Source: Phallusia mammillata (Eukaryota). Taken from it: 64,000 nt of DNA. This document shows positions 5,361 to 32,100 of the stretch, piece after piece. The DNA lies in contig OZ281499.1 of NCBI GenBank assembly GCA_965637545.1, positions 3,100,001 through 3,164,000 on the forward strand, in the 5' to 3' direction. Position 1 is the first letter of the stretch. Each line of letters opens with the position of its first letter. The notes under the pieces are model-generated. The model was given only the letters and a program-made list of their open reading frames with translations. It made no database searches and had not been told where the DNA came from. The position numbers and the translations under genes are program-made.

Positions 5361-8300
5361 TTAAATAGCAATGCTGTTTGGAACCCTGGATGGCAGTAGA
5401 AAGGTGTAAGGGTGATCCAGCTTGCTGTTGCGGGCTTTTATCTTAGCTTCGAGTGCTTGTAGATCGCTCATGTAATTATGTTGGATGTCAATGATCTTCT
5501 GCTCTGTGAAGAGACGCTCCGGAAATTGTCCCAAGTAAACCTATACATCGGTAAAGCATTTGCAAATAACTTGATTTTTTATGCAGTTCTGTTGCATGCT
5601 TTGCCATCAATCATATGCGTTTTTCAGGAAATTATGTTAGGTATGGTCGTTAATATCACTCAATATTTTACTCACAAATTTTCATGTAGAAAAAATACAT
5701 TTAAATTGTTGAAGCTATGTTAAAGAAATGTAAGATTATGGTGAACTGCAGTTTAAAATTGCTCATTGTGGTTTGATCTTAAAAAAAAACGCGTCAAGCA
5801 GATATACCGAACCGAAATACTGTTAACATTGGTGAAAAAATCACTTACTTACAGAAATCAAATAACAATCCTATAATAAAGAAATAAATACATTATACAT
5901 ACATACAATATATACCACATTATATACACATAAAAACAACATTATATATACATACAAAAGTATAGTGAATTATTTATTATGCCTACCTCGTTTGGCGAAA
6001 TTGAAGAAAGTTTGTAACTAATTGCAATCGCTGTAGCAGACATTACATTATCAGGCAGGCTGTTTAAAATCCGGCTTTCGTTTGCCTGAAACATAAAACA
6101 TTTTTGTAGCATACTTTAACGTTAAAACTTTTATATACTAGTAACTAGCATCTTCCGATACCCACAGCTAAAATAAACCTATACACACTAAACAAAAAGT
6201 ACGCAAACTTTTCGCACTTATCAAAAACAGAAGTATTGTGCCTTATTACCTTCAGGTGCCTTATAGCAGGGTGTCAAACTCGTGGGGTTCGCGGGCCACA
6301 TCGCAGTTTGGAAATTATGCCGAGGGCCGCATGTGATTTTTAGTCTAGTTTTATACACTTAAACAACCTTTTCGCTACGACGACCGCATTGCAGATCCTT
6401 ATTTCACTAACCGCCGCCAATTTGCTGCTGGTTTTTGTTTAAAAATTACACGAAACATGTTCATATCATATAAATATATCATCTATTGACGCCCCAGAAG
6501 CCTGGATTAATTTCCAACTTAATGTACAGATTAAGACCAGCAGTTTTATTATTACGTCATAATCTATATTGTGACGCTTTTCCTACCTGTTTTTTCGCAT
6601 TGTTTGCACACAATAGGCCTGCAAAATGTCTGTCGCATGGCTACTAGGCTGGTAATACTCTTTTCAGTAACACAAAATCTATTTAGGGCAGTTTGAAAAT
6701 CAGATGTTTTGGAAAAGGAGTTTTAAATACATCACGCCTGCCAGTACATACATTTTAATGCGGTCGTATGGCCGCGGGTTGTACGCCCTTGACTGAAACT
6801 TTAAGAACGGTTTAATTACTATCGTTTCTATTCATAACATATGAATTTGTATGTATAAATTAAATTTCGGTAAACGTATGTTTAAATAATAGCTTTCAAC
6901 TTGAAAAGTAAAAAAAAATTAATATAATTAGATAAAAATCTGACAAAAAAACTACAATTGTTGCTGACTGCTTGTGGGCCGCATTGGAGGGCTTCGTGGG
7001 CCGCCGCCTGCCTTATAGTAAGGAAAGCATTCTGAAACGTGTTAGCAAAACAATGCACTTACTTCACCCTTTTTGTGCGGTGGCAACCTCATGCCTAGAG
7101 GAGAATTCGGGATAAACTTGTAGTTTTCAAACTGTCCAGAATTTACAGCGGCGTGTTGAACTGTACTTGTAAACATCAATATCACGCAAATTTCCACCTA
7201 AAACGACACAAAAACACAAGTTGATTAGGAATCACCTCTTTTTATGCGTGATTGGTTTGCGCTAGTTTAAGTGTGAATGTTATTTACTTGTACAAAACCA
7301 ATCAAGCAAAATCTATGTTTTTTAACAAGGATTTATCTTATTGAGCAAGTAAACTTTCTAACATAGTATATAGGCTACCGTTGGTGCCGCTTTTAGCTCT
7401 AGTTTAGGTAGAACAAGAGGCTTAAGTTATAATTAAGTCATTGGTTGGGAAACCATGCGTTCTTTTCCGATCGTATATTTCACGCATCACCGGTTTTGCG
7501 TTTTTTCCTCAGGCGCCTCTTTCGAATTTGTCCAAAGGCACCGTTGCTGTTTCAAGTGCTAAGGCAGACAGGTGTTTCGTGTTTTGAAACGACTTGTTTC
7601 TGATTGTGGACTTGCAACTTGTCAGTGCAAATGCTTAGTTACTTTTTGCCTCTTATTTAGTCGATTTAGGATCTGTTTAGCGCTAGGATTGGTATTGTAA
7701 GGTGTATAAGATATTAGGGTTTTACTGGAAAAAAAGTTTTACTACAGAACAGATACCTATGCCTTTATCCCTTGTTATTGAGTTGTTTTTATAAACTAGG
7801 CATTGAGCTTAGTAGCATTTACGACTATGACTGACAGGAAAATGAAGTTTTTTGGAGCGTTAGTCTTATTTTTTGAGTAGTGTAAAATCAGTGCATAGTT
7901 TAAATTTAAATTAATATAAAAGTTAACATTATTCATCCGCGAAGCCAATAACCTCAATCAATAAAATGTTCACAATTTTAGCATGTTTTATAAACAATTA
8001 CAGCTTTTCTAGTTGTTATGTTACGTCGTTTTCATTAACTGATTTTATTTACATTTTTGCAGCCAAAATTATCGGTCTGTTACGTCATAACTAATAATTT
8101 ACGGAACAATCATTGTGTGACGTAAACGTTCTATTACCTCATCGCCGCGCTTGCATGACTTTAGGATGAGGCTGCTTAGTTTAAATTAAAATACATTTAC
8201 GCTGTGCTAATTCTAAATAGAATTGTATTGGGGATGGAAATAAAAAGCAGCTGCTTGTAGCAAACTACTTTTCGGTTTTCAAGATGGGCTTGAATTAGAT

Positions 8301-11300
8301 GACAAATTGTGCAATTTCGGTAAGTTTGTCCAAATTATTCATTAAACTGTGTAAGTATCTGTGCTCTGTTGTAGTACTAAGTTTACTTGCGCATATCTTA
8401 CTGTGTGAAATCCTTACCCTATTTGCACTATAAAAAAGTTGTGTAAATTACATTAATCACAACAGTTGGAAAAAGTTGGGTCGCCTGTAAATTCTGTTGG
8501 GTCGCCAGTTTTTGTGAAAATTAGAGCATCTACGTTTCGTAGCGTTATTTTGTTGTTTCCCAAGGCTGTTGTTTTCCCAATTGTTTCCAATGACAATTTC
8601 ATGACTATTTGGCGTGATAGTGAATTATTCTGTTTGTGACGTCATAATGTTTGTGTGAGATCACTGTTAAGCGTTGTCTGGCTCATAATGCGTTGAACCA
8701 GCTCTGAAGTTGGCGGAAAAACGAATAATGTTTGTGTGATGTGTTTTTTTCAAACTAGCGTAGTAATTTTCGAAAAACTTTCCTGTTTTACAAACAAAAA
8801 TACAACCAAACTAGCAAGAATGCATATCCATGGGTCGCGAGAAGCCACAAAACAAAATTTTGGTAAGTATTTGGGTCGCGACAAAAAATGGTTGGGAACC
8901 ACTGGTTTAGGTAATGAATTTTTTTTTGCAAAATCTAGAAAATCCAAACGTGGCTGAGCGTATGTTCTAGATGTTTGGAATAGCGTCCACGTTGTAAAGT
9001 TACCTAACATGGTCTTTTGCAAAGATGTAAGTTGTGCAGATTTCTTAACTTGAGCAACATTTAAGTTTATTATGTTTGGCACAAGTAATTTGTTATTGTA
9101 CCACCCCACAATCGCCATCGGAGTTTAAGTTCAAGCTTTTATTTTGCGTTTTCGTTGGGTAACGCTGCAGGCGTTTTATTTTTTTTCACAGTTTGAATTT
9201 TCATTTAAAGCCAATGTAAGCAATGAAACTACAGGTATAATTTTTGGCAAAGCGATACACACCAGCAGATAGAATGCTGCTTATCATTTCAACCAAAAAA
9301 TACCGGACCAAATCTCATAGTAATTCACGTGTAAAAACGTTTAACGTTAAAAGAAATAATACTCGTATTAATAGTGTCGGTTACCAGTTGGTTGATTGTT
9401 GTCAGTTTTTCTGACATCCCCTTGGTGTCGCTGCTTTGCCAACCCAGACCTTCCTTAGCTACGTCTTTTGCCCAGGCATGCAGTTCAAAATCTCTGCCTA
9501 CATCCTGTAAATGTGACAGTTTACAAGCACTTGAGATTATACGTGTAAGGCCCCGTAGAAACTGTAGGGATCGCCACCAACCGGATATACTGTGTAATAG
9601 TGTTTCAGAAAAGTGTAAAAGTTAACTTTGATTAGGCTAAGCATAAGTTTGATGACAGTACATTTTCTTCTCTGCTAAAGTTTATAAAAACCGTTTCAAA
9701 TGACAATATGTTAGACTTACACAAACGTTTTTGTCAACATGGCCTGCAAAGAGTATCTAAAGATGTTATACTAGATAATGTAGGGCATACGTTTTTTCCA
9801 ATGTGCGTTATTGATCGCTTGGCCAGTATGCGTTAATTTATTTTTCACTTATAGTATTTTTTGGTTTGTTATTTTATCTACTGTAATGGCCTTTTTCTTA
9901 CCACGTCGCTTTTGTAATAATGTCGAATTACGGAATTGACATATTTTTCCATAATTTTCCAATGTCCAACGACGTCGTTTCTGTATTGATAATTCGGCAA
10001 AAAATTGGGGTCGTCCGTTCCTGACACATAAATTGAAATACTTATTTTCTAATGCAAGAACAGGTTGTGTATGCCAAATCTCTCTCGGCTTTTCCTTCTG
10101 GTTTTGGCGTTGTATTTTGTTATGAGATAAACAACCTTTCTGGTTTTCAAATTAAAGTGAAAAATTAATTTGAAACGCTGGTTTAAAAAGTTGAAAGCAT
10201 TGGTATAAATGTTATGAATACTCCTACCGTTTTTCCTTAGTTGAAGTGGGATGTTCAAATCGGATAACTTGAACGTCCTGTAAGCCTTTCTTGCCAAATG
10301 CGCTGCAGCTGTAACAATATTTTGTAAGTGACATTATAACACATACGTTTCATTACATCCCGTCTTTAAACAAAGTAAAGCGTTTAACCGGGAACACAGG
10401 TATTCTTGACATTACAGTTAGCCTCTTAATTGATCGTCACAAGATTAGAATATATGTTTTTGTCGTTTCAACTTACAGACAAAGGCGGTTATTCGCATAT
10501 ATATATATATATTTGTTTAATTGCTTAGGTATGTCAAATTAGCCATTTGTTAACAAAATCTTCAAGGATATCTCTAAGTCAGTATCTCATAGATAATTGC
10601 ATTAAAAAACAAGGCAAATTAATCATGTGAAATTATTTATGATGCAGAAATGGTTTTATAACTTACATATGGAAATCCCCTGACTAGAGAGCGCATGTGG
10701 TGGAAGAAGGCTCGTTCTTACGTCAGTGTTCTTTGCCGGCACCATGCGGAGGAATGGGCGGAGAAGTTTAAATACTGGATGAGAGCGGGGTAAACATCGG
10801 AACACAGACACCGCGAAGGGCTCCAATACTAAGTGAGTGTCTAATAGGTTTTCGATCCACTGCAGAAGACAGTTACAATGTTTGTTATGTTTTGGAAAAA
10901 CAAATACCTGGATTTTACTGTTAAACAAATGTTGTGAAGAATTGTGTCATACCGTCCTTATTTCTGAAACTCGCCCCTTTTTTAATGGGCGGCGTTTTAG
11001 AAATATGGTTATCCTTTAACTACAGACAGTGCACACTGTTTCGACCTGTATAGTTCATCAGTGGGCGCATTGGTTAGTGTAGCCAACCAATATAGCCTAC
11101 CTCTCGACACCAGTTGCACTGACTGCAGCTTATACATAAACACCTTATAGGTCGAAACATGGTGCACTGTCTGTAGTTTATCATTTACTGGCTTGATGCT
11201 TTTTACATGGTTACCCTTCTCAAGAAATGTCCTTGTATTTAGCTCGCGCTTTGTTTTGTCCTTTTTTTTATTAACGTCCACAAATTTCTTCACCCCGGAG

Positions 11301-14300
11301 CAGTGGTTCTCAAACTTTTCAAACTATCAGCGCAGTAGCAAACTACTTTTTTATTCCGTGACACACTTCGTATGCCAATTTTGCAAAATGTTGTTGAAAG
11401 AAAATTAATTTGCAATTGTTATAGGTAGGGTTGATTTTTATCACCAACAAGTCCTATCTTATCAGAGAGTATATACACTTTTTGATTTAGCTAATATTTT
11501 TTGGCCCACAGTTTAAGAAGCACCGCCCCAGACGAATTATAGTAGCGCAGTAACTTGCGTGATGTGTATGGATACTAATGTTTCCTTGAAATTTAGCGTT
11601 TGGCACAAATCAATTGGTTGACATCAGTGACTTGAATACAAAGATTTGCTTATTTAATTCTATGTTTTTATTTTTGTTTTGTACAGTACCTGATGCATAT
11701 TGCTCTGTGCGCACCGGAAGTACATCTTGGCAAGCAGCCAATCCTCCTTCCGGTCGTTGGGAGTGAACACGTGATCCCGGCTACCAGGGACCAGTTGAAT
11801 TGCCAGAGGAACACATCTTCTCGAATTATTGACGTAAAACAGTCCGATACAGTCTTGACAGTGGAGGGGATTTCCCGTCGCGTAGTGCTTTACGCGGGGA
11901 ACGCCCTTCAGCGTTTCGTGAAAATCGGCGATGAAGATTTTTCCCGCCTATGTCAAAAAATTGAAATAACTTAAAAAGTAATCCCCGATTGTTATTTACC
12001 TTAGAAACAGTGGGAGAAATCAATTTTTTTGTCAGTCGATTCTATCACAAAAGTCATATTTTTCATCCTGTTCTGTTACAAAATCCATTTACATTAACCA
12101 GTAACGCTAACCGGTTCGCTGATCTCATAAAACTTCGTGAGACGGTTCTATAGAACCGGTGCGAACCGGCTGAATCCCACCACTGCTTAGAAGCTTAACT
12201 ATCTTTTATTCTAAAGCACCTTTTATTACATTGATATTGTAAAACGTCATACCCTTATTTCTCCTTCGATAGTTGTGTGGTCATCAAGGATCAAGGCGAC
12301 GTCCATGTTGGTAATTCTTGCGGTCGGAGGGATTGCATTGCAGCGTTTAAAACACAGAGGACTGACGCCATTGAGAACATGCTGAACAAAAGCCTTGTCG
12401 GTATACCAGCTGCAAATGCAAAGACTTTTCACTTGAACACGACTTGGTGCGCAAAATGTGTTGTCATTCGTGGTTCTTTAATCATTGCAGGTGAGCTTTT
12501 AAACCATACTGGCTAGGATAAACATATGTCATTTACTGGGATCAGCCCTATAGCGTTCCTGCACATCAGAGACCAACAATTAGGATACACTTATAAATAA
12601 ATCGTAGTACCTAACCCATATTGACGGCGTTGTATCGAATTCGAATCGAGCTGGTCTCTAAGACATCGTTTGGCTTCTGTCGTGGTTCGCATTCCACCAC
12701 CACCCTTTTCTGGCTTATATACCATCACATGGGAATGCTTGGGAGACCAGCTCGGTTCGGTACACCGCTTTCAATAGGCGTGGTGTACTGTGACTTAAAC
12801 TAAATTTAATCTGCGATCAGGAAACACTGTTAACTTACTCATTTAGGTTTGGTTGTTTTTCGCCTTTCGGTGGCAAACTCGCATAAAGAGCTTTATAATC
12901 TTCAAGTTTGTTGATGGATTTCGCTGTTTCTGTGATGTATATTATAGAAGTGGTTAAATGATTGTCAGGCAATGTTTTTGCTATCTTCCGTGTTTTAGTT
13001 TTAGAAATTCTAAGGTTCATAACCTCGCCGTTATTTTTTTAAGATTTGGTTGCTGTTGGGTTTGAATTTGACCACAAATAGACGATCCCACTATCTTGCA
13101 CCTAGTTGGGAATGAATTTGAGAAAAAATGATTTGCACCCAAACCAATTAAAAAAGTGCACTTGAATGCAACATGCTTAACAATTTGGGCTTTTGGTATG
13201 TTGGTGATGGATCTATCCAATGATTTGCAGCTGTCCAAATCTGGATCAGTGACCGACTTCTAATGTTATGTTAGTCGCTTTCAATTGATAGTGAAGGTAA
13301 AGTATGACTTTTTAACAAAAATCTTTTGTTCATATAAGACATTTTAATGCATTGTAGACAATTACATTGTGTATTGTAGCTCGTTGTGAAGCAATAGTTT
13401 TAAAAACCTAGCCCGAGGGCACAAATCAGTCTTTTTTGTGATTCCTTTTTAAAAGACTGGTGCAAACTACTATTACACACAACAAATTTTAATTTTGGCA
13501 TAACAAGTAAGTTGGCACACGGCGTAAACGAGTTGCCGACCCTTGCACTAAACCATCTACTTACTTCCTATGTCTTGAAAGACTGAATTTAAATCAATTT
13601 CAAAACCGGATCCAACGAAGTGGTTGGCGCGAATCTCGTCGCGTTGAAAAATTTTCGGCAACTGTTGGTACGTGGAAGCATTGACGTGACGAGGGAATCC
13701 CCACCCTATGTCAATGGGTTTGGGCATCGGAATCCACGCGAACTTGCTTCGGTTTTTCGCCACCTCTTGCAGGCGTAACTTCTTCACTTGGTTGTTGGTG
13801 ACATTTTGGGGAATGCAAGCTGAACGAATAATTTGTGTTGGATATGTTGGATAAATGTTCAAATTCAAGTCGCATGTGGAAAAGTATGACAAGACAACAG
13901 CTAAAACGGTATGATTTATTCCTAATTATGTGTCTGTCTTGCATTTAATGCTTGCACTTATATTAGCATGTGCTTTTCTCATGAAATGTTGTAAAAAATT
14001 CGCGTATATTGGTTTGAACAAACACTTTAATAATAACACACACAAGTATATTTAATTTAGTACGGCGCGTAAAAGGTTTAGAGAAGCAGTTCCCAACCTG
14101 TGTGGTGCCGTGACCCCCTTTTCTAAGATAACATTTGCTAAGTTGCGGTGAAGGACAAACTTAGTGGGCTACATATTAAAACTGACTGTATTTTTTTCTC
14201 AACAATAAAGTGGCCCATTATTGGGCTTAGTGGTCCATGGCCTCAAACAAGTTAAGAACCACTGCCTAAGGCGACTTCAGTTGGGGTCGCGACCCCAGGT

Positions 14301-15383
14301 TTAGAATCATGAAGCACCATTGTTACCAAAGCAGGATCTTTGTACTAAAAACACATGATATGGTACATGATACAATTGCGTAGGTTTAGCGAAACAAAGC
14401 CTTGTGGTTAACGACTTCCACCTCAACACGTTAGGTAATTGAGGTTTTTATTTATAAATCTGAGTTTGTTTGTTTCTTATTTCCATTTAGGATTATGTTG
14501 GATTTAATGTGGATTACATTACCTTCGCCTCGTGTCACTTCAACATTGGAATCTATCCAGTCATAAATCGGAAATTCAGCGAACTGCCCGTTGTACTCAA
14601 CCGTGACGAAATCGCATAACCACTCATCCGTTTCGCACCAGTTCAAAAGTTCTGACAAGAAAAGCACTGTATGTACTTACCTTTATTTCAGTACTACTAG
14701 AAGTTTGGTTATTTCAGGACTAACTTTCCGGCCTGTACGAAATCCGCTTCATACAACTTACTGAATCTGATAATTATTGGCAATCCTACGTCATCACACG
14801 TGATATCGTAAACGTCACGCTTGTCCTTGAACGTGTTGGCTTCGAATATGTTTTCCACCGCATAATATCCGCTCGGTTTTCCGTTTCCACCAACCAGTTC
14901 CAATTGAATTGCAAGGCGCGTAGTAGATTCGCACCCCGCTTTCGCTGTCTGAAAAGCGATTGTATAACTCATGGTGATACGCCGAACCACCGAAAAGGAT
15001 TCGGACCGAATTCAGTGTCCATTTCCGGAATCTAAAACACACGTCTTACACGGTGTTTGCAAAGATTCATATACTGTGATGCCAATAAGCCAGGTCATTA
15101 AATTCCGTACACCTTTTCAAATGCAGTGTGATTTGCATGTTGTAGATGCAGCGATTAGTAAATGTATTGCGCTGTAATTATCGGTCGATTGATTTCAGAC
15201 CATTAATCTACACAAACTTTATCAATAAACGGCATCCATATGTATATGGATTTGCGTTGCGAACTTGTGGTAAGTTACCCAATCGTTTTTTTTTTTTTTT
15301 TCTTGCTACACATTTGGGCATTTTCTTTTTGATCGACAACAACATACACTCACCACAATCGTAACTTTGTATGTAGTCTTCAT
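5361..15383 (-). CDS. LOX1: divergent ALOX5-like lipoxygenase (PLAT + LOX domain), 14 exons, 677 aa, iron-ligand His->Asn variant
   Basis: Exons 5'->3' on minus: 15383-15354, 14948-14762, 14651-14523, 13819-13565, 12929-12839, 12409-12253, 11947-11690, 10859-10667, 10308-10228, 10020-9902, 9504-9385, 7197-7063, 6085-5987, 5540-5361. All introns GT-AG with consistent phase. Motifs: MKTTYKVTIV, FPIYDW, WLLAK, PLAIQL, HQ-WIENLLDTH, HPVFKLL, QHAAVNSGQ, C-terminal PNSIAI*. Confidence 0.9.
6267..7010. mobile_element. hAT-type MITE in LOX1 intron 12, with a second element nested inside (~6360-6791)
   Basis: Perfect 8-bp TSD CCTTATAG at 6259-6266 and 7011-7018. Termini CAGGG...CCTG with subterminal gcgggcc motifs. 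The inner segment shares gatccttatttcac...gccgccaatt and ggccgc.ggttgt with the element at 46891. Confidence 0.8.
11301..11525. mobile_element. Degenerate hAT-type MITE (CAGTGGTTCTCAAAC terminus)
   Basis: Left terminus cagtggttctcaaactttt; degenerate right terminus gtttaagaagcaccg; TSD-like ccccggag/ccccagac. Confidence 0.6.
12008..12185. mobile_element. ~180-bp hAT-type MITE (family CAGTGGTGGGA...TCCCACCACTG), copy 1
   Basis: TSD cttagaaa/cttagaag; homologous along its length to 19658-19837. Confidence 0.8.
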
Positions 15384-16640: not shown

Positions 16641-19600
16641 TTAGATAGCAACGCTGTTTGGGATCCTGGATGGCAGTAAGTAGGTGTATGGGTGCACCAA
16701 CTTCTCGTTGCGAGCTTTTATCTTAGCTTCGAGCGCTTGTAGATCGCTCATGTAATTACGTTGGATGTCGAGAATGGTCTTTTCAGTGAAGAGACGTTCC
16801 GGAAATTGTCCAAGGAAAACCTGAACAATGGTTTATGCTTTTATATAGCTATGTTCGTTGCTGTTACGGTTCAAAAGCAAAATATTATTTCTGTAGTTGA
16901 AAATGGCGTTTAAACCAATAGTAACCAGTGACATGGGTAGTGTTCCACCTGTCAGGAAGCGTTGTTTCAGCACTTTAAATTTCGACCAAACAGCTTAGTT
17001 ATTTATTGTTAAAAGTGAAACACTTTACCCATTCCGTACATGTGTATATATTAGTTTGCTAAGTGAAGGTTACCTCGTCTGGCGAGTAATCAGAAAGTGC
17101 AAACAACACTGCAATGATAGATGAAGCCATCACCGAATCTGGGAGACTGTCCAAAATTCTTTGTTTGTTGGCCTAAACATTGCACAAAATGATATGAAAT
17201 CAATTTAAATAGTATAGCACAGGGATTGCCGACGAGGATAAACCACGTGTGTCTGAGCAATTTCCCGCCTTTCTGGAATCTTTATTTAGTCAATAATTTA
17301 TCTGCTCTGGTTATTGTCATCTGAGTGCAATCTACACTGATTCAGATGCTATTTACCTGTCCGTTTTTGTGTGGAGGCAGACGCATAGCAAGAGGGGAAT
17401 TTGGGACGAACTTGTAAGTCTCGAACTGACCAAAATTGACAGCAGCATGTTGCACAGAACTTGTGAATATCAGTATGACACAAATTTCAATCTATAAAAC
17501 ACAAGAGAGAAAAGCTATAGTAAGTTATGCCCACTAAACAAACAAAACGTTCGTTTTCCTGCTTAATACTTGCCCATGGAAATCAGTGAAATGTACGCAA
17601 AAAATGCTTACGTTACTAGTTATAATTAAACTAAAATCTTGAGGTCGTGTCTTTGAAAAAGCCTTATATATGTTAATGCGTTATTTCATTAAGGTGTATT
17701 TAACTTTACGCTAACGTATCTAGTAAAAAGTCCATGTCACCATTTGCTAAATTATTTGCTGTTTTCCTTTTCTCAATCTCCAATTTAAATAACAAAGAAC
17801 AATGTTGAAGTAACAGTATTAGGAAATGCTTCTCTCACCAGTTGATCGACTGAAGTCAGGTTTTCTGGCATTCCCTTTGTATCGTTGTCTTGCCAACCTA
17901 GACCCTCTTTGGCGACATCTTTTGCCCAAAATTGCAGCTCGTAGTCGTTGACAACGTCCTAAAAGTTCGAAGATATTTCGTGAAATACTTGCACAATAGA
18001 CACTTTTGTTAATTAAAGTTTGAAATATTAATGAGATCCTAAACTGAGGTTTTGCCTAAATTTTAACACTGAACCTCCTAAGCTTTGTAGCTTTGGATTC
18101 TATCTTAAACCTACCTCATCACACTTGTAGTAGTGACGAATGCATGCACTCGCGTATTTCTCCATGATCTTCCACTGGTCAAGTGCATCGTCTCGGTAAT
18201 AGTAGTTGGGCAGAAGAGTTGCATCGTCCGTTCCTGCGAAAGCGTTTGGATGTTTAAAAAATAGCATCCTGATATTATGCTGTTGTATGTCTACTTGACA
18301 GTGAAGGAAAGCTTACCGAATTTTTTGAGCATGTTTGGAATGTGAAGGTTTTGGATGTTGTACGTTTTGTAGATTTTCTTTACCAATGCAAGTGCACCTG
18401 CAAAAAATATCCATTATCCCAGGTAAGATACACTCTAAAAAAAATGAGCGAAATTTGAGCGAAAAATTCTGCGAGTGAAACAAAAGCTCACTTTAAACGA
18501 GTGAACAACTTTACTCACTGATTTGAGTGAATAAAAGACTAAATTTGCAGGGTTTTTGGTCTTTATTTCACTCATTGGTTTGAGCTATTGAAAGAAGCAG
18601 GTGCTGTGTGGTTGGTTCTTATTTTGCTCACCTTTCAAGCAAATACACATTAAAAACATCACAATATGTTCACTGGTTTATTTTTCTGGGCACAAATGAA
18701 CACACCAACACAGTTGTTACATCACAGCACTAAGAGAATGGAAACTGGTCTGGATCATATATTCGTCCAACGACGACCAACAATGGCTGACTGAGTTTGA
18801 CTTTTGACTTGTTCAGGGCATATTCAGCAATGTTGTTGCCGGCCTGTAAAAACATCAGAGCTAGTGAGGATGTTTTATACTGTACAACTATATTTTAATC
18901 ACAGCAAATGATAATCCAGAAAATATCAGGGATTGGGAACTTACTGAAAAATAAACTTTGAACAAGCTTTGGTTTTGCTAAAAAAACAATTATACTTACT
19001 TGCATCACGGGCTAATCTTTACCACTTACAGTCTTTGCAAGTAGATCCACATTTGAAAGGACAATTAGAAATGTCAATGTTCATTAACTTTATTGTTTTG
19101 TTTTATGAATATTGTACATTTATGCAGGAAATTTTTAATAAAAACAAGACCACAAAATAAATCCTAAAAACATACACAATATATAAGTACAAGAAAATAA
19201 AACGACTTACTTCTCATTTTCTCCTCAATACTATCGTCAATTAACTGTTGATCCTTTAGAAACAGAAGCGGCTCTTCAATGCCAAACTGTGAAATATCTG
19301 CTTTGGACACTTTGTATGCAACGCTAGCCTATGGTGATATCTAAGCCCAACTTGGCCTCGTTTGGTAATTCACGCCATCCAAACCCTATCCCGCAGTTTT
19401 GCGCAATAGATGTGACTGTGACGTAATTCAATTTCATTCCCCTCGCTTGCGCCAGCCAATCACGTTGTCGACTTCGGAACGCGCGATTTTGAAAAGAGAG
19501 AAAGGTTCTCTCGTTTCGCCGCGAAAAAAGGTTTGAGCGAAAATTTCACTTCTTTCCAGACGAAAGACTGGAATTTCGCTCGCCGCCTCCCGCCGGGGAG

Positions 19601-22600
19601 AAGAAATGAGCGAAGTTTTTTTAGAGTGTACGCTTTGCCAAAATTGCAGTCTATACCCAGTGGTGGGACTCAAATTTTTTGTCAGTCGGCTTTATCACAA
19701 AAGTCATATTTTTTAGCCGATTCTGTTACAAAATGTCCCTTGGCAGTAACCAGTAATGCTAACCGGCTCGGTGATCTCATAAGATTTCATGAGACGGTTG
19801 TATAGAATCGGTGCGCACCGACTGAATCCCACCACTGTCTGTAACTTTTCACATAGTTTCATATTACACATACCTACATGTAACAAGGTGTGTAACATTC
19901 TATGGTTTGTCATACGTAGACTTGGCAACCTATAAATCCAATGATACTTACTTGTGGAAACCCCCTTTCCCGCTAAAGAGTCGGGTGGTAAAAGAGTGTC
20001 CCTTGCGTCATTGTTGATACACGAAACTGAACGAAGGTGGGGACGCAGCAATTTGTAAATCGGATGAGCACGAGGCAAACATCGGAATAGCGCCACAGCG
20101 AAAGGTTCTGTTGCAGCGTGTGTCTCCATGTGATGATAGATCCACTAGAAACAAAACATCAATGGTAGATGTTTCAATTACATAATTAAAAATGTCATGA
20201 GCTGTCTTTAATTATTAAAAAAATCTTGATTTGCTGGAATTGTCGTTGAATTTAAATTTTTACTCATAGCAGAAATTGTTTTGTTCCAATTCTGTCACAC
20301 TTAACGAAGAGTTGTACTAGCTTGCGTCCAGTCGTTGCTTTATGCATTACCAGTGTAGTGCTTTGAAATGTACGGATCTGTTCATAAGTTTAAAGGTAAA
20401 AATAACGGCCCAAATAGGCGTTAAAAGCGACATGCTTTATTGTTCAAACGTTTTGACAAATGCTCATGCCATCATCAGTGATATGAAGACGACATCAGTG
20501 TAGTGCTTTTTACCAAATAATAAGTAACTATAAAACGGTGATAACCCTTCAAAAAACTGGACTTTATCTAACCTCGTGCATGTTGCCTTGTGAACAACGA
20601 AAGTACATCTTGGCAAGCAGCCAATCCTCTTCACTGTCGTTGGGTGTGAACACGTGATCAGGGCTACCGGGAACCAGTTGAATTGCCAAGGGCAGAAATT
20701 CACCTTTGTCGTTTACGTAAAAGAGTCCAATGCATTCAGGACAATTAAGTGGTTTTTTTGTTCTGTAGTTGTCAACTCTTTGGACTCCTTGAAATACTTC
20801 AGTGAAGTCAGCAATGTAGATTTTACCGGCCTGTTGTAAATGTCAGATGTTTTACAGTTATGTTATTTATTGAACCAAGATATTTTGTCTTCTGATTTTT
20901 AAAAGGATACAGTTCTGTCGCTAAACACCGCCTTTACATTACAATCTAAGTTGCTGTTTACAAAATGTATGAAAAGACGAGGGTTGGCCTACTTTCCCTT
21001 GTGCCCTTTCCCTTCTTGTAGTAGGCTATAGTTTAATGTTTTTGATACATTTGACAATGGACAGTTACACGGAGACTGAAATGCTTTGTACCTTCATTTC
21101 ACCTTCCAGCGTTTTGCCTGTTCCAAGTGTCGTATCTACGTCACTGTTCATGATGTCACAGTTTGATGGCAGTGATGTGCAACGTTTGAAACAAAGTGGG
21201 GCCACTCCGTTTAATGTTTGTCTACCAGTGCTTTTGTCCGAAAACCAACTGTAAAAGAGCAAAGTATACATTACACCGAAATGGTGTTTTTTGAACCTGA
21301 CTTGCAAAATGTAGTCTCTATGTACTGGTGTTAAATAATAATTACGCCTCACATACTCCATGGCGCATCTAGTGTTCCGTGTGGTGAACTGCGCTATTTC
21401 TACGTGGCAGTTGGAACACATGTAGTTAATGCTGTGAGGGCACATGCAACTTTCCTCTATTCTCAAAGTATTTCTTGTTCTCAAAGTTCTCAAAGTATGG
21501 GTCGCGACCCAAACATGGGTCGCGCAGCGTCAAAAAATGGGTCGCGCTATGGTGATTCAGTTCTGCCCAAACGAACTTTTTTCATTTCATTTTTAAAGTA
21601 TTTTTAATTCTCCATCATGACTGAATTATTGCATCATTATTGCTTCATCTCAGTAACTTGGAGTATTGCATCATAAGTGGTTTTCTGAAAGTTTTGATGG
21701 CAGAGTATAGCCATAGCCAAGTACAGCCTCACTCAACCACGTTGTACAGTAAAATAAACCAACCATTACCGCTTACATACAATAGCCTTCCAATTTTACT
21801 GTTATGCACGTGGTGATTGTAACGTCATAGCACGGGAAATAATAGGACAAGTTAATCATGCGAAACTGAACTTGGAGATGTAACAGTTAGCGTTCAAGGA
21901 TGAGTTAGTATTCGTACAAGGAAAAAAATACATTTTTGTTGTTTGAGGCTTGGGTCGTAAGATGCACATAAAGTTCAGATTTGGGTCGCGCTCAAAAAAG
22001 TTTGAGAACCACTGCTCTAAGGTTTGATCAACTTTTTTTACTTTATAATAAAGGCAAGTCTATAGCCGACCGAACCACAAAGACGTATAACACTTACTCA
22101 TCCAAATACATTGGGTCTTCTCGTAGCAGTGACTCGTGTTTGTATATCGAGTGATAATCTTTCAATTCGTCGATTGGGGACATGATTCCTGCAATAGAAT
22201 GAAACAACTGGAGTGTTGATATTTCTGCAATTGTTCTTATTTTGGTTACAACTGGTTAATTAGTGAATAGTCTAAAACTTGTTAGTTCATGTTTCAAGAA
22301 TTTTGTGGTCCGTTCACGACTGTTGTCACACACACCGTACACGACTGTTGTCAAACCCAGTCGCGCCACCTTTAGTCCCACTCGTTTCTCAAAGCCAGAT
22401 TTCAACCTTCTCAGGCCTTTACCAGATTCAAGGTGTACACAACAAAATGAAGTGCATTTTTTCTTTGCACCATCATAACAAAAATCCTTGTCCCAAAATC
22501 CCATCATTTACCCTAAAGACAAGATGATTGGCATAACTTACTTTGAATGGTATTGAGTGCAGAGGTGGATATTGCTTTCAGAACGCTTCCCATGAAGTGA

Positions 22601-24332
22601 GTGGCCTTCACTCTGTCCTGCCGAAATATTCTGGGAAGTTCACGGCGCGTTGCACCTTTGACGAAACGAGGAAGTCCCCAATTCATGTCACTCTCATTCG
22701 GTATTGGAACCCATTCGAATTTCTTCAAATTTTCCGCTATCTCGTCAATACGAAGTTTCTTTACCTTCGGGTTTGTGACATTTTGAGGAATTTGAGCTTG
22801 GAAAATAATAACACGTTTTATTGTTAAATGTCTGCAAAAATTGAAACCCGGTCAAATGGCAACTAACGGTCCCTAAATTTGTCTTATCTTTTTAGGAAAC
22901 TTTAAACAGTAGACCCCGCAATTGGTAGGCTTGAGTGATTGCCAAATAATCTTGGAGCACTTGCGTGTCAGCGTGTCAGCGCGTACTGAAAAACATTCTC
23001 ATGGAAAAAAGTCCAATTAACCCCCTATCCAGTTTTACAAAAGGGCGCTTTTACAAAATGTTGCTGATTTTAATTTTCCAAACAGTTTTACAATCAAATC
23101 AGCAACACCAGACCGAGCAGCCAGAATATCGTCTATCTCGTTGACTTGAATAAGCGCATAAGCTCTGCTGAATAGCACCCAAGTTTTGTGTTAACAAAAG
23201 ATTTTTGGTTCAATGGCGAAGTCAGGGCCAAAATCGTAAAAGGATGAAAATTTGGTCACCAAATCTTTCCTCAGTGGGGTATTAAGGAGTTTTTTGACGA
23301 TCGCGCGCAATCGTGCTTTTAGTCTATGGACCACCAAGTCAGTTAAAAGCAGAATCGAGGACAATACCGTTTAAGCATTCACAGCAAACATCTTTTCTGC
23401 TGAAATTTTTTCCTTACCTTCTCCTCTGGCCACATCGATTGTAGTTGTAATCCAATCATAGATGGGAAACTCTGCCACTTCAATACCCTTTTCCACTTTA
23501 ACCATATTGCACATCCATTCATCTTCACCAAACCAAGATGACAGCTCTACAATAAAACTAAATGCTCACTTTTGCATAAATGACCATGTAACACGTATAA
23601 AAAATGTTTTAGCATTTGTAAAAGCGCAAATTTTTGTCATTTAAAACGGTATATTTAATAACTTACTGAATCGAATGATTATTGGTAGACCGACGTCTTC
23701 GCAAGTTAAATTGTAAACATCAGTTTTTCCGGGCTCGAAGTCGTCATGCAGGAATTTATCGAGCTTTAGCCAGTCGGTGGTGACGATGGTGGCGTCCTTC
23801 TCCCCAACCATCTGAAGGGACACTGTGGCGTTTGTGCCAGCCTTATTGGTCGCATCTGAGGTCTGCCCAAATAAAATTGATATTTTCCAACCGGATAGGA
23901 AACGTTTTAGATTTTGTGCTATTGCCCTTTTCCATCAAATGCAGTTCTTGAAACTAGCTAAACAAACGATGTTGGTTAAACTGTAAGCTGCGGCGTAGCT
24001 TTTTTGATACAGATTGTGTGGGTTGATATCAAGGCCGCTTACAACTAATGACATGCTGATATTGTTTCTAGCCTCCCGCGTTTTTTATTTATTCATTTAG
24101 AACTCTTTGTAGATGTAGACATTGTACGCCAACACGCCTTTTGCTAGCATGATATAATAGCACAAATGATACAGCTATTTGCTATCGTTAACCAATCTAG
24201 CATTACAACATGCGGCTTACTTTTTTAACACCACATCATGTGGCTTACCATCGTGAGATTTCGGTATTTGCATTTAATCTTGCTCACATATGTTATTCAA
24301 CTTACCGACACTGAAACTCTGTAAGTAGTCAT
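16641..24332 (-). CDS. LOX2: ALOX5-like lipoxygenase, 14 exons, 679 aa, canonical iron ligands
   Basis: Exons: 24332-24306, 23862-23667, 23546-23418, 22796-22542, 22188-22098, 21248-21092, 20830-20573, 20144-19952, 18397-18317, 18233-18115, 17958-17839, 17491-17357, 17172-17074, 16820-16641 (2040 nt). Motifs [41 protein letters not shown]. Confidence 0.93.
18431..19628. mobile_element. ~1.2-kb non-autonomous DNA transposon, EnSpm/CACTA-like, in LOX2 intron 8
   Basis: TIRs CACTCTAAAAAAA / TTTTTTTAGAGTG flanked by TA on both sides; repeated subterminal TGAGCGAAA/TGAGTGAA motifs; no transposase ORF. Confidence 0.75.
19658..19837. mobile_element. ~180-bp hAT-type MITE, copy 2 of the 12008 family
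   Basis: TIRs cagtggtgggactc / gaatcccaccactg; degenerate TSD tctatacc/tctgtaac. Confidence 0.8.
21460..22014. mobile_element. hAT-type MITE (tgggtcgcg subterminal repeats, GTTTGAGAACCACTG right end)
   Basis: Repeated gggtcgcg motifs at both ends. The same kind of right end occurs at 8870-8904. Left boundary approximate. Confidence 0.6.
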
Positions 24333-26179: not shown

Positions 26180-29100
26180 TTAAATAGCAATGCTGTTTGG
26201 AACTCTGGATGGCAGTAGGAATTTGTAAGGGTAATCCAACCCCTCGTTGCGAGCTTTTATCTTAGCTTCGAGTGCTTGTAGAGCTTTCATGTAATTCTGC
26301 TGAATCTCAATGATTTTCTGCTCTGTGAAGAGACGCTCCGGAAATTGCCCCAAGTAAACCTGAACAACAATTTAACAATTTTGAAGCAGTGTGCACTGTC
26401 TGCAGCTTAACGATTTTGTTGTTTGGCAATTTTCGTATCATTCACTATGCAAACGACCCAAAACAACAGAGATTCTTTTGGGTTGTGTAGCTTTTAGCGA
26501 TGTTGTAGTATCGTGTGTTTTTAAACTATAGTAAGTTGCCATATGAAAGTAGCTAAGAATAGAATAACTTTTAAAATTTAAATTTTGTGAGCATGATTTG
26601 TCGTTCTCATGAAACTATATGTTGCTTTGCGATTGTCTTACTTAACTGAGCTATGTTCGCTAGTGGAAGTTTACGTTCAGTGCCATTGTTTCCATTTTAT
26701 ACACAAATCCAAATTTATCTTGTGGGTTTCGATGTCTCAACGTCTATTTGTGGCAATAGTTGGCCCAACAACCCAAAAACCGATCGCTTGTTAATAGTCT
26801 CACAGAATTAAAACCATTGGTGAATAGCTTTTGACTACCAAGCAATGATTACCTCGTTGGGTGAATACTCAGAAAGTGCAAACACCACTGAAATGACAGA
26901 CCCCGCCATGAATGAATCTGGGAGGCTATCCAAAATCCGTTGTTTGTTTGCCTAAAAATAAAAACGGTTAAAAATCACTTTCAAATAAGCGTGGTTGCAC
27001 TTATTTCATAACTTATTCAACGTTTTAATTGCCAATATCTTTACTTATTTAAGTTTGTTTTTGGTCACTCCTATTTGTTTTTTGTGACTCGAAGCAATAT
27101 TGTACTGCGCCACTTTTGTAACTTGTGACTGATATAACTTACCATTCAAATGTATTGATATTTGTTTATCCAAATGGTACCATTACTTAAAGTCATAAAT
27201 TTTTTTACTCACATCTCCTTTTTTGTGTGGAGACAGACGCATAGAAAGTGGGGCATTTGGGACGAACTTGTAAGTCTCGAACTGACCAAAATTGACAGCA
27301 GCGTGTTGCACAGAACTTGTGAACATCAGTATAAGACAAATTTCAATCTATAAAAAGCAATTGCTGTGTTGTTGGGTTTGTTGTTTTTAAAGTCTTTCAT
27401 ACACAGGTTGTAATGACAGCTGACATGTCACTTTATTTTCTAATCACAAATAGTAAAACAAACGCAAAACAAGGCGCAAAATTAGAGCTACATTGAAGTC
27501 TATGACATGCAATTCAACAACCTTTGGAAATGCTCAATTTGAATGCTACAAATCGATATCGATATACTGCAGTGATATAACACCATAGTGTTTTTTTTTA
27601 ATAAGTGTTTCTTACCAGTTCATCGACTGAAGTCAGGTTTTCTGGCATTCCCTTTGTGTCGTTGTCTTGCCAACCAAGACCCTCGTTGGCGACTTCTTTT
27701 GCCCAAAGCTGCAGCTCATAATCTTTTACAACGTCCTGAAAGGTGGGCATCAATTAATACGGGGTAATCACCACTATTACTGCTACTAACGCATATTGTA
27801 ATAGTTGATAGTACTATAGTTGAGTTTGTGGTTTTCCATAATGAAGGCTTAATTAGTTCCAATCTTGTCATCCGACAGACACTTCATCAAGCTTTTATTT
27901 AAAAAAGTTCATTGAAGAGGTTAGTCTAGACGCAAGGTTTTTAATCTTATCACCTCTTTACCCTTGTTAAAATTAAATGGCAAAAATTTAACCTACATCA
28001 TCACACTTGTAGTAGTAACGAATGCATGCACTCGCGTATTTCTCCATGATCGTCCACTGGTCAAGTGCATCGTCTCGGTAATAGTAGTTAGGCAGAAGGG
28101 TTGCATCGTCCGTCCCTACAAAAGAGTTTGTTTGTTTCAAAAATCTTCTAAACTTGTAGTGTTGTATGCCTACTTGAACAGATAAATGCTTTTTTGAAAA
28201 AAAATAGAAGTACGCCCACCGAATTTTTTGAGAAGTTTTGGAATGTGAAGGCTTTCGATGTTGAACGTTTTGTAGATTTTTTTCGTCAGTGCCAGCGCCT
28301 CTGGAAAGGCAAACATATGTTTACATTATGCATTGACATCAATACAGGGCTGAACATTTGAACACATTAAAGAGTTTTTACGAAGCTTTTTTTGTCATGT
28401 GCCCAAGTGGTTAACACAACAGACTTATGTTTATGGGGTTCTAATCCCATTTTGGTCGCTTGTGTTTCCTTGAGCAAGGAACTTTGGCGGCGTTGCCTCA
28501 ACCCAGTGGTCCCAGATGAGTAAATTGAAGTCACTAACTGCTCTACTCGAAAAAATCAAATAAAAAATGATCAACGGACTTCCAATAAAAACACACAGCT
28601 TGACGCGGACTTATTGCGAGCATAACGCATTCAGGAGTTGCCTGATCACCTAGAATATAGTTGAAGCAAACAAACAAACCACTGCCTGTAAGATCACCAG
28701 TTACTAACTTGTGGAAATCCCCTTTCCAGGAAGAGCCTTCGATGACAAGAGCGTAACTCTTGCGTCATTGTTGATGCACGAAACTGTACGAAGGTGGGGA
28801 CGCAGCAGTTTGTAAATCGGATGAGCACGTGGCAAACATCGGAACAGCGCCACACCAAAAGGTTCCATAGAACCGTGCGTTTCCAAATAGTGGTAGATCC
28901 ACTGAACACATTCAATTGCGTTATAATGGCAGATAGTTAAATTAGCTATGTGACCATACCTCATGCATGTTGCTCTGTGAACACCGTAGGTACATCTTGG
29001 CAAGCAACCAATCCGCTTTGCGGTCGTTACGCGTAAAAATGTAATCCCGATTACCAGGAACCAGTTGAATTGCCAAGGGCAGAAATTGACCTTTGTCGTT

Positions 29101-32100
29101 GACGTAAAAGAGTCCAATGCACTCAGCACAGTAAAGTTGCTCATTTTTTAAGTAATGCTCCATTCTCTCGACTCCGCTGAAAACCTCCGAGAAGTCGACG
29201 ATGTAGATTTTACCTGCCTGTTGAGAGGTATATAGCCAAGAAGTACATTACTGTTATTTTAAGAACTTTGACTTCTTTTCAAAGGATATACATCCTTCCG
29301 CCATTTACGATTTCCTTACTTTTATGCTTTTAACAATTTTTTTGTTGCGATTTCTTTGATTACGGTTTGTACATAACACCAAACCACGGTTGTTTCACGC
29401 TTGGTTTATGATTTTAATTTGTACCTTCATTTCACCCTCCAGGGTTTTGCCTGTTCCAAGAATCGTATCTACGTCACTATTGTTGATATTACAGTTTGAT
29501 GGCAATGACGTGCACCGTTTGAAGCAGAGTGGAACAATTCCGTTTAACGTTTGTCTGCCGGTGCTATAATCCGAAAACCAACTGCAAATACCAAATTGCA
29601 TAATATACTGCACAAGGAGTCCTAAAAACTTTAATGTGGTTATATGTACTTACTCATCCAAATCTATTGGTTCCTCTCCTGCCATTGACTCGTGCTTGTA
29701 CAATGAGTGATAATCTGTTAACTCGTCAATTGGCGACATGATGGCTGCAATATGCATACATTTTTCTGTTTTCAAACTGATCATACTTTTTGAAGTTTAG
29801 TTTACAATAGAAGCAAGTTGAGTTGTGATATTTTCTTTTTTTAACATTTTTGTTTTTGCGAAGACGTAGCATTGTGTCATAAAAAAGTTCGTTAGTACGA
29901 ATTATTCTACGTATATTTCCGTCTCTCACACCACATAAGTGTTTACTAACGGGATTGTGCGCCATGCAGGGTGTTTATTTGGGCATTTGGACTTGCCATG
30001 CTTCTTTAACAAAAACAACCAAAATTGCTTTCAAATATTTATCTTTTTCTATTTGTGGATATGGAGGCATTAGAATTTTAAAGTCGATTTGACTGGCAAA
30101 GCTAAAACTAAGCAAAAAATCATTTACTTGACTTACTTTGGATAGTGTCGAATATAGACTCGGCGAGCCCAGCTAGAGCGGTGCCCACGAAGTGAGTTGC
30201 CTTAACCTTGTCCTGTTGAAATATTCTCGGGAGTTGAAAACGCGTGGCACCTTTGACGTAACGGGGAAGTCCCCAGCTGCTGTCACCTTCCTTTGGTTTC
30301 GGAATCCATTCAAATTTCTTGAAGTTTTCGGCTATCTCATCAATACGAAGTTTCTTTATCTTCGGGTTGGTGATGTTTTGTGGGAGTTGAGCTAAAAGGG
30401 AAATGTACATTTTCGTTGCCAGTGCAAATTTATTTGACTAAAAGGCACTCTTTGGCCTCCCAAAGAAGTTTGTTTTAGCTCTTAAAAATGTGTTACCAGA
30501 TTTGGACGAGGCAACCTTGTCTACTGACTTAACAAAAACATAATTTGAATGTAGTGAGATGCGTGATGAGAGGGTTAAACATGAACAAGAGTGTTAAACA
30601 TGAAGGAGATAGAGGAAATCGCAAAAGACAGGAAAAGTGGAACAATCTTGCTGCCCAATGCGCCCAAGAGTGCGGGAAACTATAATAAATAGTGACATAT
30701 AATAATAGTCTACCCAAGTTTACAAACTCCCTCATCTGTGACTGCGCCGGCGCCCGGGTTTAGAAGCGATAATATATGACAATACAGTTTGCAGAAAACA
30801 TAAAATACCATAATCGAGATTTCTACGAAAGAAAAATTCCAAGTAATACAAGCAAACAACAAGTCAGACCGAGAATATGTGAACTTTACCGTAACGTTAA
30901 GTCAAGCGAAAACGCCACAAACCCAATTTCCGTGTTGAAATAACCTTTCATGAAATGAAAATTGAGTTTGTATAAATTTTTCGCTGCCAGTCAAATATGC
31001 GTGGGTGGGAACAAAAAATTGTGGCTATGCATAAATTTGATTGAAACACCGGATTTAAAAATCAAATAATTTGCAACGTTTGCTGCGTTTCTTTGTAATT
31101 TACTGAACCGAATGATGACCGGAAGACCAATATTTATGCCCTCTGGCTCCGCCATATTTTAGTATTGTTAAACAAGACCTCTTTGGCCAAGAGGTTTCTG
31201 ACAATTTCGCTTAAGTAAACATCGAAATTAATGCAAAACATGTCGAGCATTGGTTAGGTTTTTGGTCTCTATAGTTTTGTTTTATTAACAGAATGATTAC
31301 AATAATTACTGGGCCAGGTAAATACTCAAAGGTACTTGTAATATTTTTGAGTGTTTAAGACCCATTTTTTTCTCAGAAATTTTTATTTTACCTTTTGTAT
31401 TTCAAAAAGCATCAGAGTAGTGCAAAATTTTACGACTTGATGTGTTATAGGCCACTTTACTTAACAAATGTCACAAGGAAATGCAAATGAAACACAGGCG
31501 AGACGCATGAGACCTAAACTTTGACATACCCTCTCCTCTGGCCACATCAATTTCAGTTGTAATCCAATCATAGATGGGGAACTCAGCTGTTTCCACACCA
31601 TGTTCCACTTTAACCATGTTACACATCCATTCATCTTCACCAAACCAAGATGACAACTCTGTTGATTGTTGAAAAAGAAAGTGAATTTTTTTATTTACTG
31701 TTGGTCAATGAAGTATTATTCTGTGGTTTCACATAAACTTATGATCCCATTTAAGCTAGGGGTCGGTAACCTTTTTTGTGCCGGGGACCGGTTTGAAACT
31801 GAAATTTTATATTACTGACCGGCCTTTTGAAACCACACATGGTTAGTCCGGAAAACTAATTACGGTTGTTACAACTTTTCAATGTGAACCTTGAGCAAGA
31901 CGGACCGGCACTGGGCCGCGGGTTTCTATATTTACCTGATTTCATTACTTGGAAATAGTTTTTAGATATTCACACATAAAGTTCCGTTATAACTTACTAA
32001 ACCGAATGATGATTGGTAGACCGACGTCTTCGCAAGTTAAATTGTAAACATCAGTTTTTCCGGGCTCGAAGTCGTCATGCAGGAATTTATCGAGTTTTAG

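What the first reader, a model, noticed from the sequence alone, without database searches (positions are those of the whole stretch)
5361..15383. LOX1 is structurally intact but has an altered active site and PLAT domain
Seen: all 14 exons keep paralog-like lengths and splice sites despite deep divergence. By manual alignment to ALOX5 numbering it carries H367N, H399F (RPFLR vs RPHLR), I406K (AKNTD vs CINND), Val at the Ala/Gly stereo-determinant position 410 (DVR vs DAR) and HAAVNSGQ. Its PLAT exon lacks the AGT(D/N) and (D/N)DF-x-x-G-x-x-D motifs of its neighbours (TAKAGCEST...EANTFKDKRD). Known: position 410 (Coffa site) is usually Ala in S-LOX and Gly in R-LOX, and these PLAT acidic loops bind Ca2+ and membranes in ALOX5 and coral LOX. 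Inference: long retention of an intact frame implies selection on a non-canonical, possibly Ca2+-independent function.
Basis: partly seen in the sequence, partly recalled or inferred. Interest (0 to 1): 0.7.

Follow-up and report, generated by a model that had tools for sequence, protein, structure and literature searches.

The report
Conserved lipoxygenase missing an iron histidine
An intact lipoxygenase gene, likely from a sea squirt, has lost one of the three histidines that hold the enzyme's iron yet shows purifying selection, so it likely works as a non-catalytic lipid-binding or regulatory partner of its presumably active neighbours, and several other copies in the same genome have lost the same histidine.

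Summary
LOX1 is a 14-exon, all GT-AG, 677-aa open gene on the minus strand. In ALOX5 numbering it has H367N, H399F, I406K, A410V and F555S, and a PLAT loop without the Asp/Glu calcium pair. H367 is an iron ligand (His in 180 of 193 homologs), and H367N is used as a dead mutant of ALOX5. The gene is not decaying: branch dN/dS is about 0.08 (p=7e-20 against 1), and 11 of 17 exonic allele differences are synonymous.

(1) The key change is loss of the iron ligand, not the stereo site or calcium. (2) It is not unique: 5 of 22 intact LOX models in this genome lack His367, including neighbour W4 with the same Asn, and one has a 63%-identical ligand-less counterpart in Ciona savignyi. Exon 14, which carries the C-terminal Ile ligand, looks recently gene-converted, so its conservation is no evidence of iron binding.

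Best reading: a selected pseudo-lipoxygenase (0.55). Rival: an iron-retaining hydroperoxide-processing enzyme (0.25). Expression, activity and true orthologs of LOX1 are untested.

The parts
5361..15383 (-). LOX1 gene, 14 coding exons, 677 aa, PLAT plus lipoxygenase domain
   Evidence: Pfam PLAT and Lipoxygenase hits exon by exon
15354..15383 (-). exon 1 (ATG, 30 nt)
   Evidence: W3 model has the same 30-nt start
14762..14948 (-). exon 2, PLAT first half; AGT loop (14948-14916) and calcium loop (14840-14823) altered
14523..14651 (-). exon 3, PLAT second half
   Evidence: PF01477 E=0.0011
13565..13819 (-). exon 4; 7 of 7 allele differences synonymous
12839..12929 (-). exon 5, most divergent exon (26-32% aa to the array clade)
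12253..12409 (-). exon 6; conserved Gly and Gln replaced (G239V, Q241H, LOX1 numbering)
11690..11947 (-). exon 7 with WxxAK motif, His362 and Gln363 equivalents
10667..10859 (-). exon 8, active-site helix and arched helix
10848..10850 (-). Asn373 (AAC) in place of iron ligand His367
10833..10835 (-). His378, retained ligand (His372)
10752..10754 (-). Phe405 in place of conserved His399
10731..10733 (-). Lys412 in place of Ile406; 0 of 192 homologs have Lys
10719..10721 (-). Val416 at the Ala/Gly (Coffa) site
10228..10308 (-). exon 9
9902..10020 (-). exon 10
9385..9504 (-). exon 11
7063..7197 (-). exon 12 with retained His550 (7155-7153) and Asn554 (7143-7141) equivalents, Ser at 555
5987..6085 (-). 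exon 13
5361..5540 (-). exon 14 with C-terminal Ile and stop; probable gene-conversion tract 5359-5547, 92-94% identical to W6, W7, C4a, C4b
16641..24329 (-). W2, canonical LOX neighbour with all five ligands; spliced contigs in run X8 lie on it
26180..32503 (-). W3, canonical LOX
35534..41165 (-). W4, intact LOX with the same His367Asn (codon 37390-37388)
42949..48168 (-). W5, recent duplicate of W4 with Asn367; about 690 bp missing near 45410-45425 (exons 5, 6 and most of 7)
49295..54019 (-). W6, canonical LOX
56651..63254 (-). W7, canonical LOX, closest paralog of LOX1 (61% aa)

Best explanation
LOX1 is an intact, old member of a tandem lipoxygenase array that has Asn in place of the first iron-binding histidine and shows purifying selection, so it is likely a pseudo-lipoxygenase that would act without oxygenating fatty acids, by binding lipid or by regulating its presumably active neighbours. 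Shown: intact frame, the substitutions, low dN/dS, synonymous-rich allele differences, and a deep split from its sister clade. Inferred: the fold is kept; iron is bound weakly or not at all; Lys412 and Val416 reshape the pocket into a binding site rather than an oxygenation site, with Lys possibly holding a lipid carboxylate; membrane contact is not calcium-triggered. Between the two non-catalytic modes I lean to lipid binding over heterodimer regulation, because exon 5, which I take from recall to lie by the alpha-2 dimer surface, is the most divergent part. Both modes are untested.
For: Gapless mapping of exon 8 onto 5-LOX, 12-LOX and 11R-LOX puts Asn373 on the first ligand. His is at that column in 180 of 193 homologs. 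Reviews call the first three His fixed. ALOX5 H367N is described as lacking activity. Further rare pocket changes pile up in the same exon: Phe at 399 in 3 of 192, Lys at 406 in 0 of 192, Val at 410 in 4 of 193. The rest is conserved: only 7 of 86 strongly conserved positions differ, against 0-10 in His367-bearing paralogs. Branch omega is 0.076, LRT against omega=1 is 83 (p=7e-20), and omega of 0.15 or more is rejected by the profile. Of 17 exonic allele differences 11 are synonymous (p=0.0002-0.003), and none of the listed differences is a stop or frameshift. Loss of His367 recurs in 5 of 22 intact models, and the ligand-less C2 gene has a 63%-identical Ciona savignyi counterpart. Precedents exist for non-catalytic LOX roles and allosteric monomers.
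Against: Four of five ligand positions are kept (His372, His550, Asn554 and C-terminal Ile equivalents), and Asn can ligate iron at the fourth position, so a metal site may persist; the Ile is in a converted exon, but His550 and Asn554 are not. dS on the branch is near saturation (about 2.6), and omega averages over time before His367 was lost. The two DNA-holding runs are of one study, of unrecorded kind, and may include the assembly's source; 7 of the 11 synonymous differences lie in one contig. No ortholog of LOX1 itself was found. The ALOX5 mutant result was read as one passage whose data sit in a supplement I did not see. No binding partner or ligand is shown.
Confidence: 0.55

Rival explanations
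1. LOX1 keeps an iron, bound by two His, two Asn and the C-terminus, cannot abstract hydrogen from fatty acids, but converts hydroperoxides made by its neighbours, working like eLOX3 (isomerase) or as a lyase or peroxidase.
For: Four of five ligand positions are retained and the replacement is a potential O-ligand. The same CAC-to-AAC change stands in W4/W5, in a different part of the tree, each time with Gln at 363 where their closest relatives have Glu. A named protein record carries Asn367 (P0001). eLOX3 has no normal dioxygenase activity yet is essential (PMC13059375).
Against: The first three His are described as invariable across 153 LOX sequences, which would include hydroperoxide-processing members. 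Other ligand-less copies use Arg or Lys, which fits loss rather than substitution. The shared Gln363 may come from conversion of the exon 7 end, 4 differences in 54 nt between LOX1 and W4. W4's omega is raised, 0.39 against a background of 0.17.
Confidence: 0.25
2. LOX1 is a formerly functional duplicate that was recently silenced or inactivated; its frame is intact only because decay has not had time.
For: The array turns over: W5 carries an internal deletion and W4 shows relaxed selection. No protein record matching LOX1 came back from searches with exon 7 or exon 8 (weak by the tool's own statement). Branch omega cannot date the loss.
Against: Present-day allele differences are 11 of 17 synonymous against 22-30% expected, with no stop or frameshift among those listed. 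Several independent active-site and PLAT changes have accumulated, some needing more than one base, while the frame and 13 introns stayed intact.
Confidence: 0.1
3. LOX1 is an active dioxygenase that tolerates Asn367 and has a changed product specificity and calcium-independent membrane binding (closest to the first reader's framing).
For: Strong purifying selection in both domains; WxxAK, His372, His550, Asn554, Leu414 and cluster spacing are kept.
Against: H367N is described as inactive in ALOX5. A Lys in the hydrophobic channel is seen in 0 of 192 homologs. No active LOX without this His appeared in the passages read.
Confidence: 0.1

Closest known systems
Animal PLAT-lipoxygenases (PF01477 + PF00305): human ALOX5 and ALOX12, coral 8R- and 11R-LOX
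   Same: Domain order, length, WxxAK, His372/His550/Asn554/C-terminal Ile, cluster spacing of 177 against 178 residues (ALOX5 numbers from PMC5113960).
   Different: Asn for His367, Phe for His399, Lys for Ile406, Val at the Ala/Gly site; PLAT lacks the Asp44/Glu46 pair.
Engineered ALOX5 H367N (PMC9672960, passages)
   Same: Identical substitution at the first iron ligand; reported to lack activity while ALOX5's non-enzymatic effect persisted.
   Different: LOX1 is natural, selected, and has further pocket and PLAT changes.
eLOX3 / ALOXE3 hydroperoxide isomerase (PMC13059375, passages)
   Same: A LOX-fold paralog without ordinary dioxygenase activity, working beside an active LOX.
   Different: eLOX3 is a proven iron enzyme with Ala at the Coffa site (PMC3840004); LOX1 lacks a His ligand and has no shown activity.
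Inactive 5-LO isoforms (delta4, delta13) and the ALOX15 allosteric monomer (PMC5113960, PMC11593649, passages)
   Same: Precedent for a non-catalytic LOX chain modulating an active one, proposed through dimers.
   Different: These are splice forms or conformers of one gene; LOX1 is a separate gene, and no interaction is shown.
Ligand-deficient invertebrate LOX-like records (Ciona savignyi H2YSA1, Nematostella EDO29209.1, Branchiostoma, Lingula, Ornithodoros)
   Same: Lack His367, often other ligands too; automatically annotated as LOX.
   Different: Those placed in the tree (H2YSA1, EDO29209.1) are not orthologs of LOX1; most have lost two or more ligands, LOX1 only one.

Membership tests
Lipoxygenase family (sequence) | PF00305 catalytic domain | tested here: met
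   Exon 8 E=8.6e-8 (above cutoff); exons 7, 10 and 12 weaker; exon 14 no hit; 4 of 5 catalytic exons scanned hit
Lipoxygenase family (sequence) | N-terminal PLAT domain | tested here: met
   Exon 3 PF01477 E=0.0011, below cutoff as a fragment; exon 2 no hit but aligns at family length
Authentic ALOX filter (PMC10531496) | W-xxx-AK motif | tested here: met
   Present in exon 7
Authentic ALOX filter (PMC10531496) | First iron cluster, His367 + His372 | tested here: not met
   Asn373 + His378
Authentic ALOX filter (PMC10531496) | Second cluster His550/Asn554, C-terminal Ile, and cluster spacing | tested here: met
   His555, Asn559, Ile677; spacing 177; the Ile exon looks gene-converted
Active dioxygenase LOX | Bound iron and PUFA oxygenation | not testable with these tools
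   Needs recombinant protein
S- or R-LOX (Coffa rule) | Ala or Gly at position 410 | tested here: not met
   Val; Ala 120, Gly 52, Val 4 of 193 homologs
Ca2+-binding LOX PLAT (ALOX5 type) | Asn43/Asp44/Glu46 loop (PMC5113960) | tested here: not met
   Loop reads ANTFKD, with no Asp/Glu pair in either register; 20 of 21 other models keep an acidic residue before the Phe
Pseudoenzyme | Lacks a canonical catalytic residue | tested here: met
Pseudoenzyme | Coding sequence kept under purifying selection | tested here: met
Pseudoenzyme | Expressed as protein and shown inactive | not testable with these tools
   Needs deeper RNA or proteomics and assays
eLOX3-like hydroperoxide isomerase | Complete His ligand set and isomerase activity | tested here: not met
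   Ligand set incomplete; activity not testable

The most novel reading that the evidence does not exclude
Invertebrate chordates repeatedly evolve a class of selected lipoxygenase paralogs without His367. In LOX1 (and W4) the His-to-Asn change, with Lys in the pocket, builds a new two-His/two-Asn iron site that processes lipid hydroperoxides instead of making them, a natural rewiring of a ligand set held to be invariant.
Probability: 0.2. Interest if true: 0.75.

Novelty: new variant of a known kind. Interest (0 to 1): 0.5.

Why it matters
The three iron histidines are treated as invariant, and sequences lacking them have been filtered out before study (PMC10531496, passage). This genome shows such copies are not all debris. 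LOX1 carries the exact laboratory dead mutation yet is under purifying selection, and another ligand-less copy is conserved at 63% between two ascidian genera. That gives natural test cases for the open question of non-catalytic LOX functions, with presumably active sister genes as controls. It also warns that automatic 'ALOX5-like' names overcount active enzymes: 15 of 189 homologs examined lack at least one of the three His.

Tried and rejected
Expression: no RNA holder listed for window 9385-13819. Four of the 12 RNA?-labelled runs (one per study) were laid on 5300-25000; the listed pieces on LOX1 were intronic repeats, most of its exon bins had no cover, and X8 gave spliced pieces on W2. 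This is no evidence for or against LOX1 expression. Homolog search with exon 8 alone: nothing among 20 candidates. With exon 7: 6 tunicate proteins among 14 candidates, none identical to LOX1. Structure: the one AlphaFold job folded the W0 protein P0002, not LOX1, on a 15-row alignment; pLDDT was 54.6, so it was not used and no fold search was run. LOX1 has no structural model here, so pocket geometry rests on sequence alignment. No complex job was sent. My recollection that zebrafish LOX1 has Val at the Coffa site was wrong; it has Gly. PLAT-only omega (0.01) is unreliable because dS ran to about 31. A sixth-exon candidate at 12770-12594 was rejected: phases join exon 5 directly to 12409. An assembly error at Asn373 is unlikely: contigs of X1 and X2 cover exon 8 and list no change at 10848-10850, although changes near contig ends are not listed. 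A single origin of Asn367 spread by conversion was considered: exon 8 codons of LOX1 and W4 are otherwise diverged (15 of 35 shared synonymous codons, as for other paralogs), so two origins are more likely. Primary papers on Coffa-site mutants were not held. Eight literature searches listed no paper on a natural His367-less LOX or on this array; only the top 20 or fewer titles of each were seen, and most subscription papers are not held. Earlier findings of the scan: none.
Full report
Setting. The window is G000:C6:3100001-3164000 of a 240-Mb genome. A search with LOX1 exon 8 found 23 matches, one at 100% and the next at 60%. The window holds seven minus-strand lipoxygenase genes (LOX1, W2-W7), part of a 12-gene array on C6. 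I fetched 30 stretches covering the other loci and modelled all 23 with a spliced aligner of my own: 22 give full-length frames without internal stops, and W5 is broken. First exons are less certain. Two named Phallusia mammillata records are 100% identical to model W0 and 96% to W4, so the genome is very likely that ascidian or a close relative.

The observation. LOX1 has 14 exons, all introns GT-AG, 677 codons and a single terminal stop. Exon 8 aligns without gaps to 5-LOX, 12-LOX and coral 11R-LOX chains, giving Asn373 = His367, Phe405 = His399, Lys412 = Ile406 and Val416 = Ala410. His372, His550, Asn554, Leu414 and the C-terminal Ile equivalents are kept (two columns were off by one and were corrected). 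I aligned 202 database homologs. Of those with a residue in the column, 180 of 193 have His at 367, 182 of 192 His at 399, 0 of 192 Lys at 406, 4 of 193 Val at 410 and 14 of 196 Ser at 555. The PLAT exon keeps its length but loses the AGT and (N/D)DFExG motifs. It finds no PDB or Pfam match, whereas W7's exon 2 matches coral LOX and PLAT. ALOX5 binds calcium with Asn43, Asp44 and Glu46 (PMC5113960, passages). The Glu is also replaced in several paralogs, but the acidic residue before the Phe is missing only in LOX1 and Cc, 2 of 22.

What the key change means. His367 is an iron ligand. A 2026 review calls three histidines fixed in all LOX (PMC13059375, passages), and an alignment of 153 LOX found them invariable (PMC3840004, passages). 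H367N was built as an enzyme-inactivation mutant of ALOX5 and is said to lack activity (PMC9672960, passages; the data are in a supplement I did not see, and the wording does not make fully clear whether the three mutations were single). The original iron-content study was seen only as a reference entry; I recall that His367 mutants kept part of their iron, which I could not check. The substitution therefore predicts loss of dioxygenase activity, which makes the stereo-determinant a side issue.

Selection. In a protein tree of exons 2-13, LOX1 is sister to the W2-W7/C4 clade, with a branch of 0.48 against 0.28-0.54 to the sister tips, so it is old rather than fast. It differs at 7 of 86 strongly conserved positions, against 0-2 in the canonical members of its clade and 3-10 in older His-bearing paralogs. 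A GY94 branch model on 600 codons and 10 of the 22 genes (exon 14 and exon 1 left out) gives omega 0.076 on the LOX1 branch against a background of 0.19. The LRT against omega=1 is 83 (p=7e-20), and the profile rejects 0.15 and above. dS is about 2.6, near saturation, and the estimate spans time before the His was lost. The catalytic exons alone give 0.117, and exon 8 alone gives 0.17 (p=0.03). For present-day constraint, two runs holding the locus were laid at 96% likeness. Of 34 listed differences 18 are exonic: 12 synonymous, 6 non-synonymous, none a stop; the two listed indels are intronic. Dropping the exon 14 site, which paralogs share, leaves 11 of 17 synonymous (p=0.0002 at 22% expected, 0.003 at 30%). 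The runs are of one study and unrecorded kind and may include the assembly's source.

Gene conversion. Exon 14 is 92-94% identical to W6, W7, C4a and C4b over 5359-5547, with 47-48 of 53-55 synonymous codons shared against roughly 20-65% in the other exons, and the match stops at the exon's edges. The retained C-terminal Ile is thus not independent evidence that iron binding is selected. The end of exon 7 may be a second short tract.

Not unique. His367 is replaced in 5 of 22 intact models: Asn in LOX1 and W4, Arg in W11 and E (E also lacks His372), and Lys in C2 (also Tyr at 550); broken W5 has Asn too. W4 nests among His-bearing genes, so its Asn probably arose separately; its omega is 0.39, still below 1 (p=1e-6). 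Record P0001 carries Asn367 and is W4-like in front and W5-like behind. C2 groups with Ciona savignyi H2YSA1 (support 1.00, 63% identity; Lys367 and Asn550), more conserved than the 52-53% best matches of the canonical Ciona records P0006 and P0007. Among homologs, 15 of 189 lack at least one of the three His, and the named ones include Nematostella, Branchiostoma, Lingula and Ornithodoros records; some may be gene-model or alignment errors. No ortholog of LOX1 itself appeared.

Mechanism. Shown: an intact, selected LOX-family gene with four of five ligands and a rare pocket. Inferred, most likely (0.55): a pseudoenzyme that binds lipid, with Lys412 as a possible carboxylate anchor, or that modulates sibling enzymes, as proposed for inactive 5-LO isoforms and allosteric ALOX15 monomers (PMC5113960 and PMC11593649, passages). 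Rivals: an iron-retaining hydroperoxide-processing enzyme working like eLOX3 (0.25), a recently silenced copy (0.10), or an active dioxygenase (0.10). It belongs to the LOX sequence family but fails the iron-cluster test for an authentic ALOX (PMC10531496, passages). PMC6612559 was read in passages for the Coffa rule; all other papers were seen as search listings only.

Verdict. This is a new variant of a known kind; eight searches listed no description of it. Interest is 0.5: real, testable and recurrent, but without expression, activity or an ortholog for LOX1.

Noticed in passing
G000:C2:7905425-7911493 (L026-L027), minus strand: LOX-like gene with Lys at 367, Tyr at 550 and Thr at 554; 63% identical to Ciona savignyi H2YSA1, which lacks the same ligands. 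It keeps the PLAT DDFExG loop. It is a stronger candidate for an ancient conserved pseudo-lipoxygenase than LOX1.
   Followed up: partly
window 35534-41165 (W4) and 42949-48168 (W5): A recent duplicate pair (89-99% DNA identity) with His367Asn. W5 lacks about 690 bp (exons 5, 6, most of 7). Named record P0001 is W4-like in front and W5-like from about exon 10, suggesting another haplotype or a chimeric assembly.
   Followed up: partly
G000:C6:3215360-3222655 (W11) and C6:27032316-27038394 (E): Two more intact LOX models with Arg at 367; E also has Asn at 372 and does not end in Ile or Val.
   Followed up: no
window 5359-5547 and exon 14 of W6, W7, C4a, C4b: The last exon is homogenised across diverged paralogs, including two on another contig.
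   Followed up: partly
G000:C6:9454034-9462064 (B1): The only one of 22 models with Gly at the Coffa site, so a predicted R-LOX.
   Followed up: no
window 6256-7009 (LOX1 intron 12): A contig of run X1 skips 752 bp here with 9 letters fitting both sides, which suggests a polymorphic transposon insertion.
   Followed up: no
window about 12020-12190 and 19650-19780: A high-copy short repeat family in LOX1 intron 6 and in W2, abundant in RNA?-labelled runs.
   Followed up: no
window 10841: Both X1 and X2 read a base giving Asp376Asn, between the two first-cluster ligand positions.
   Followed up: no
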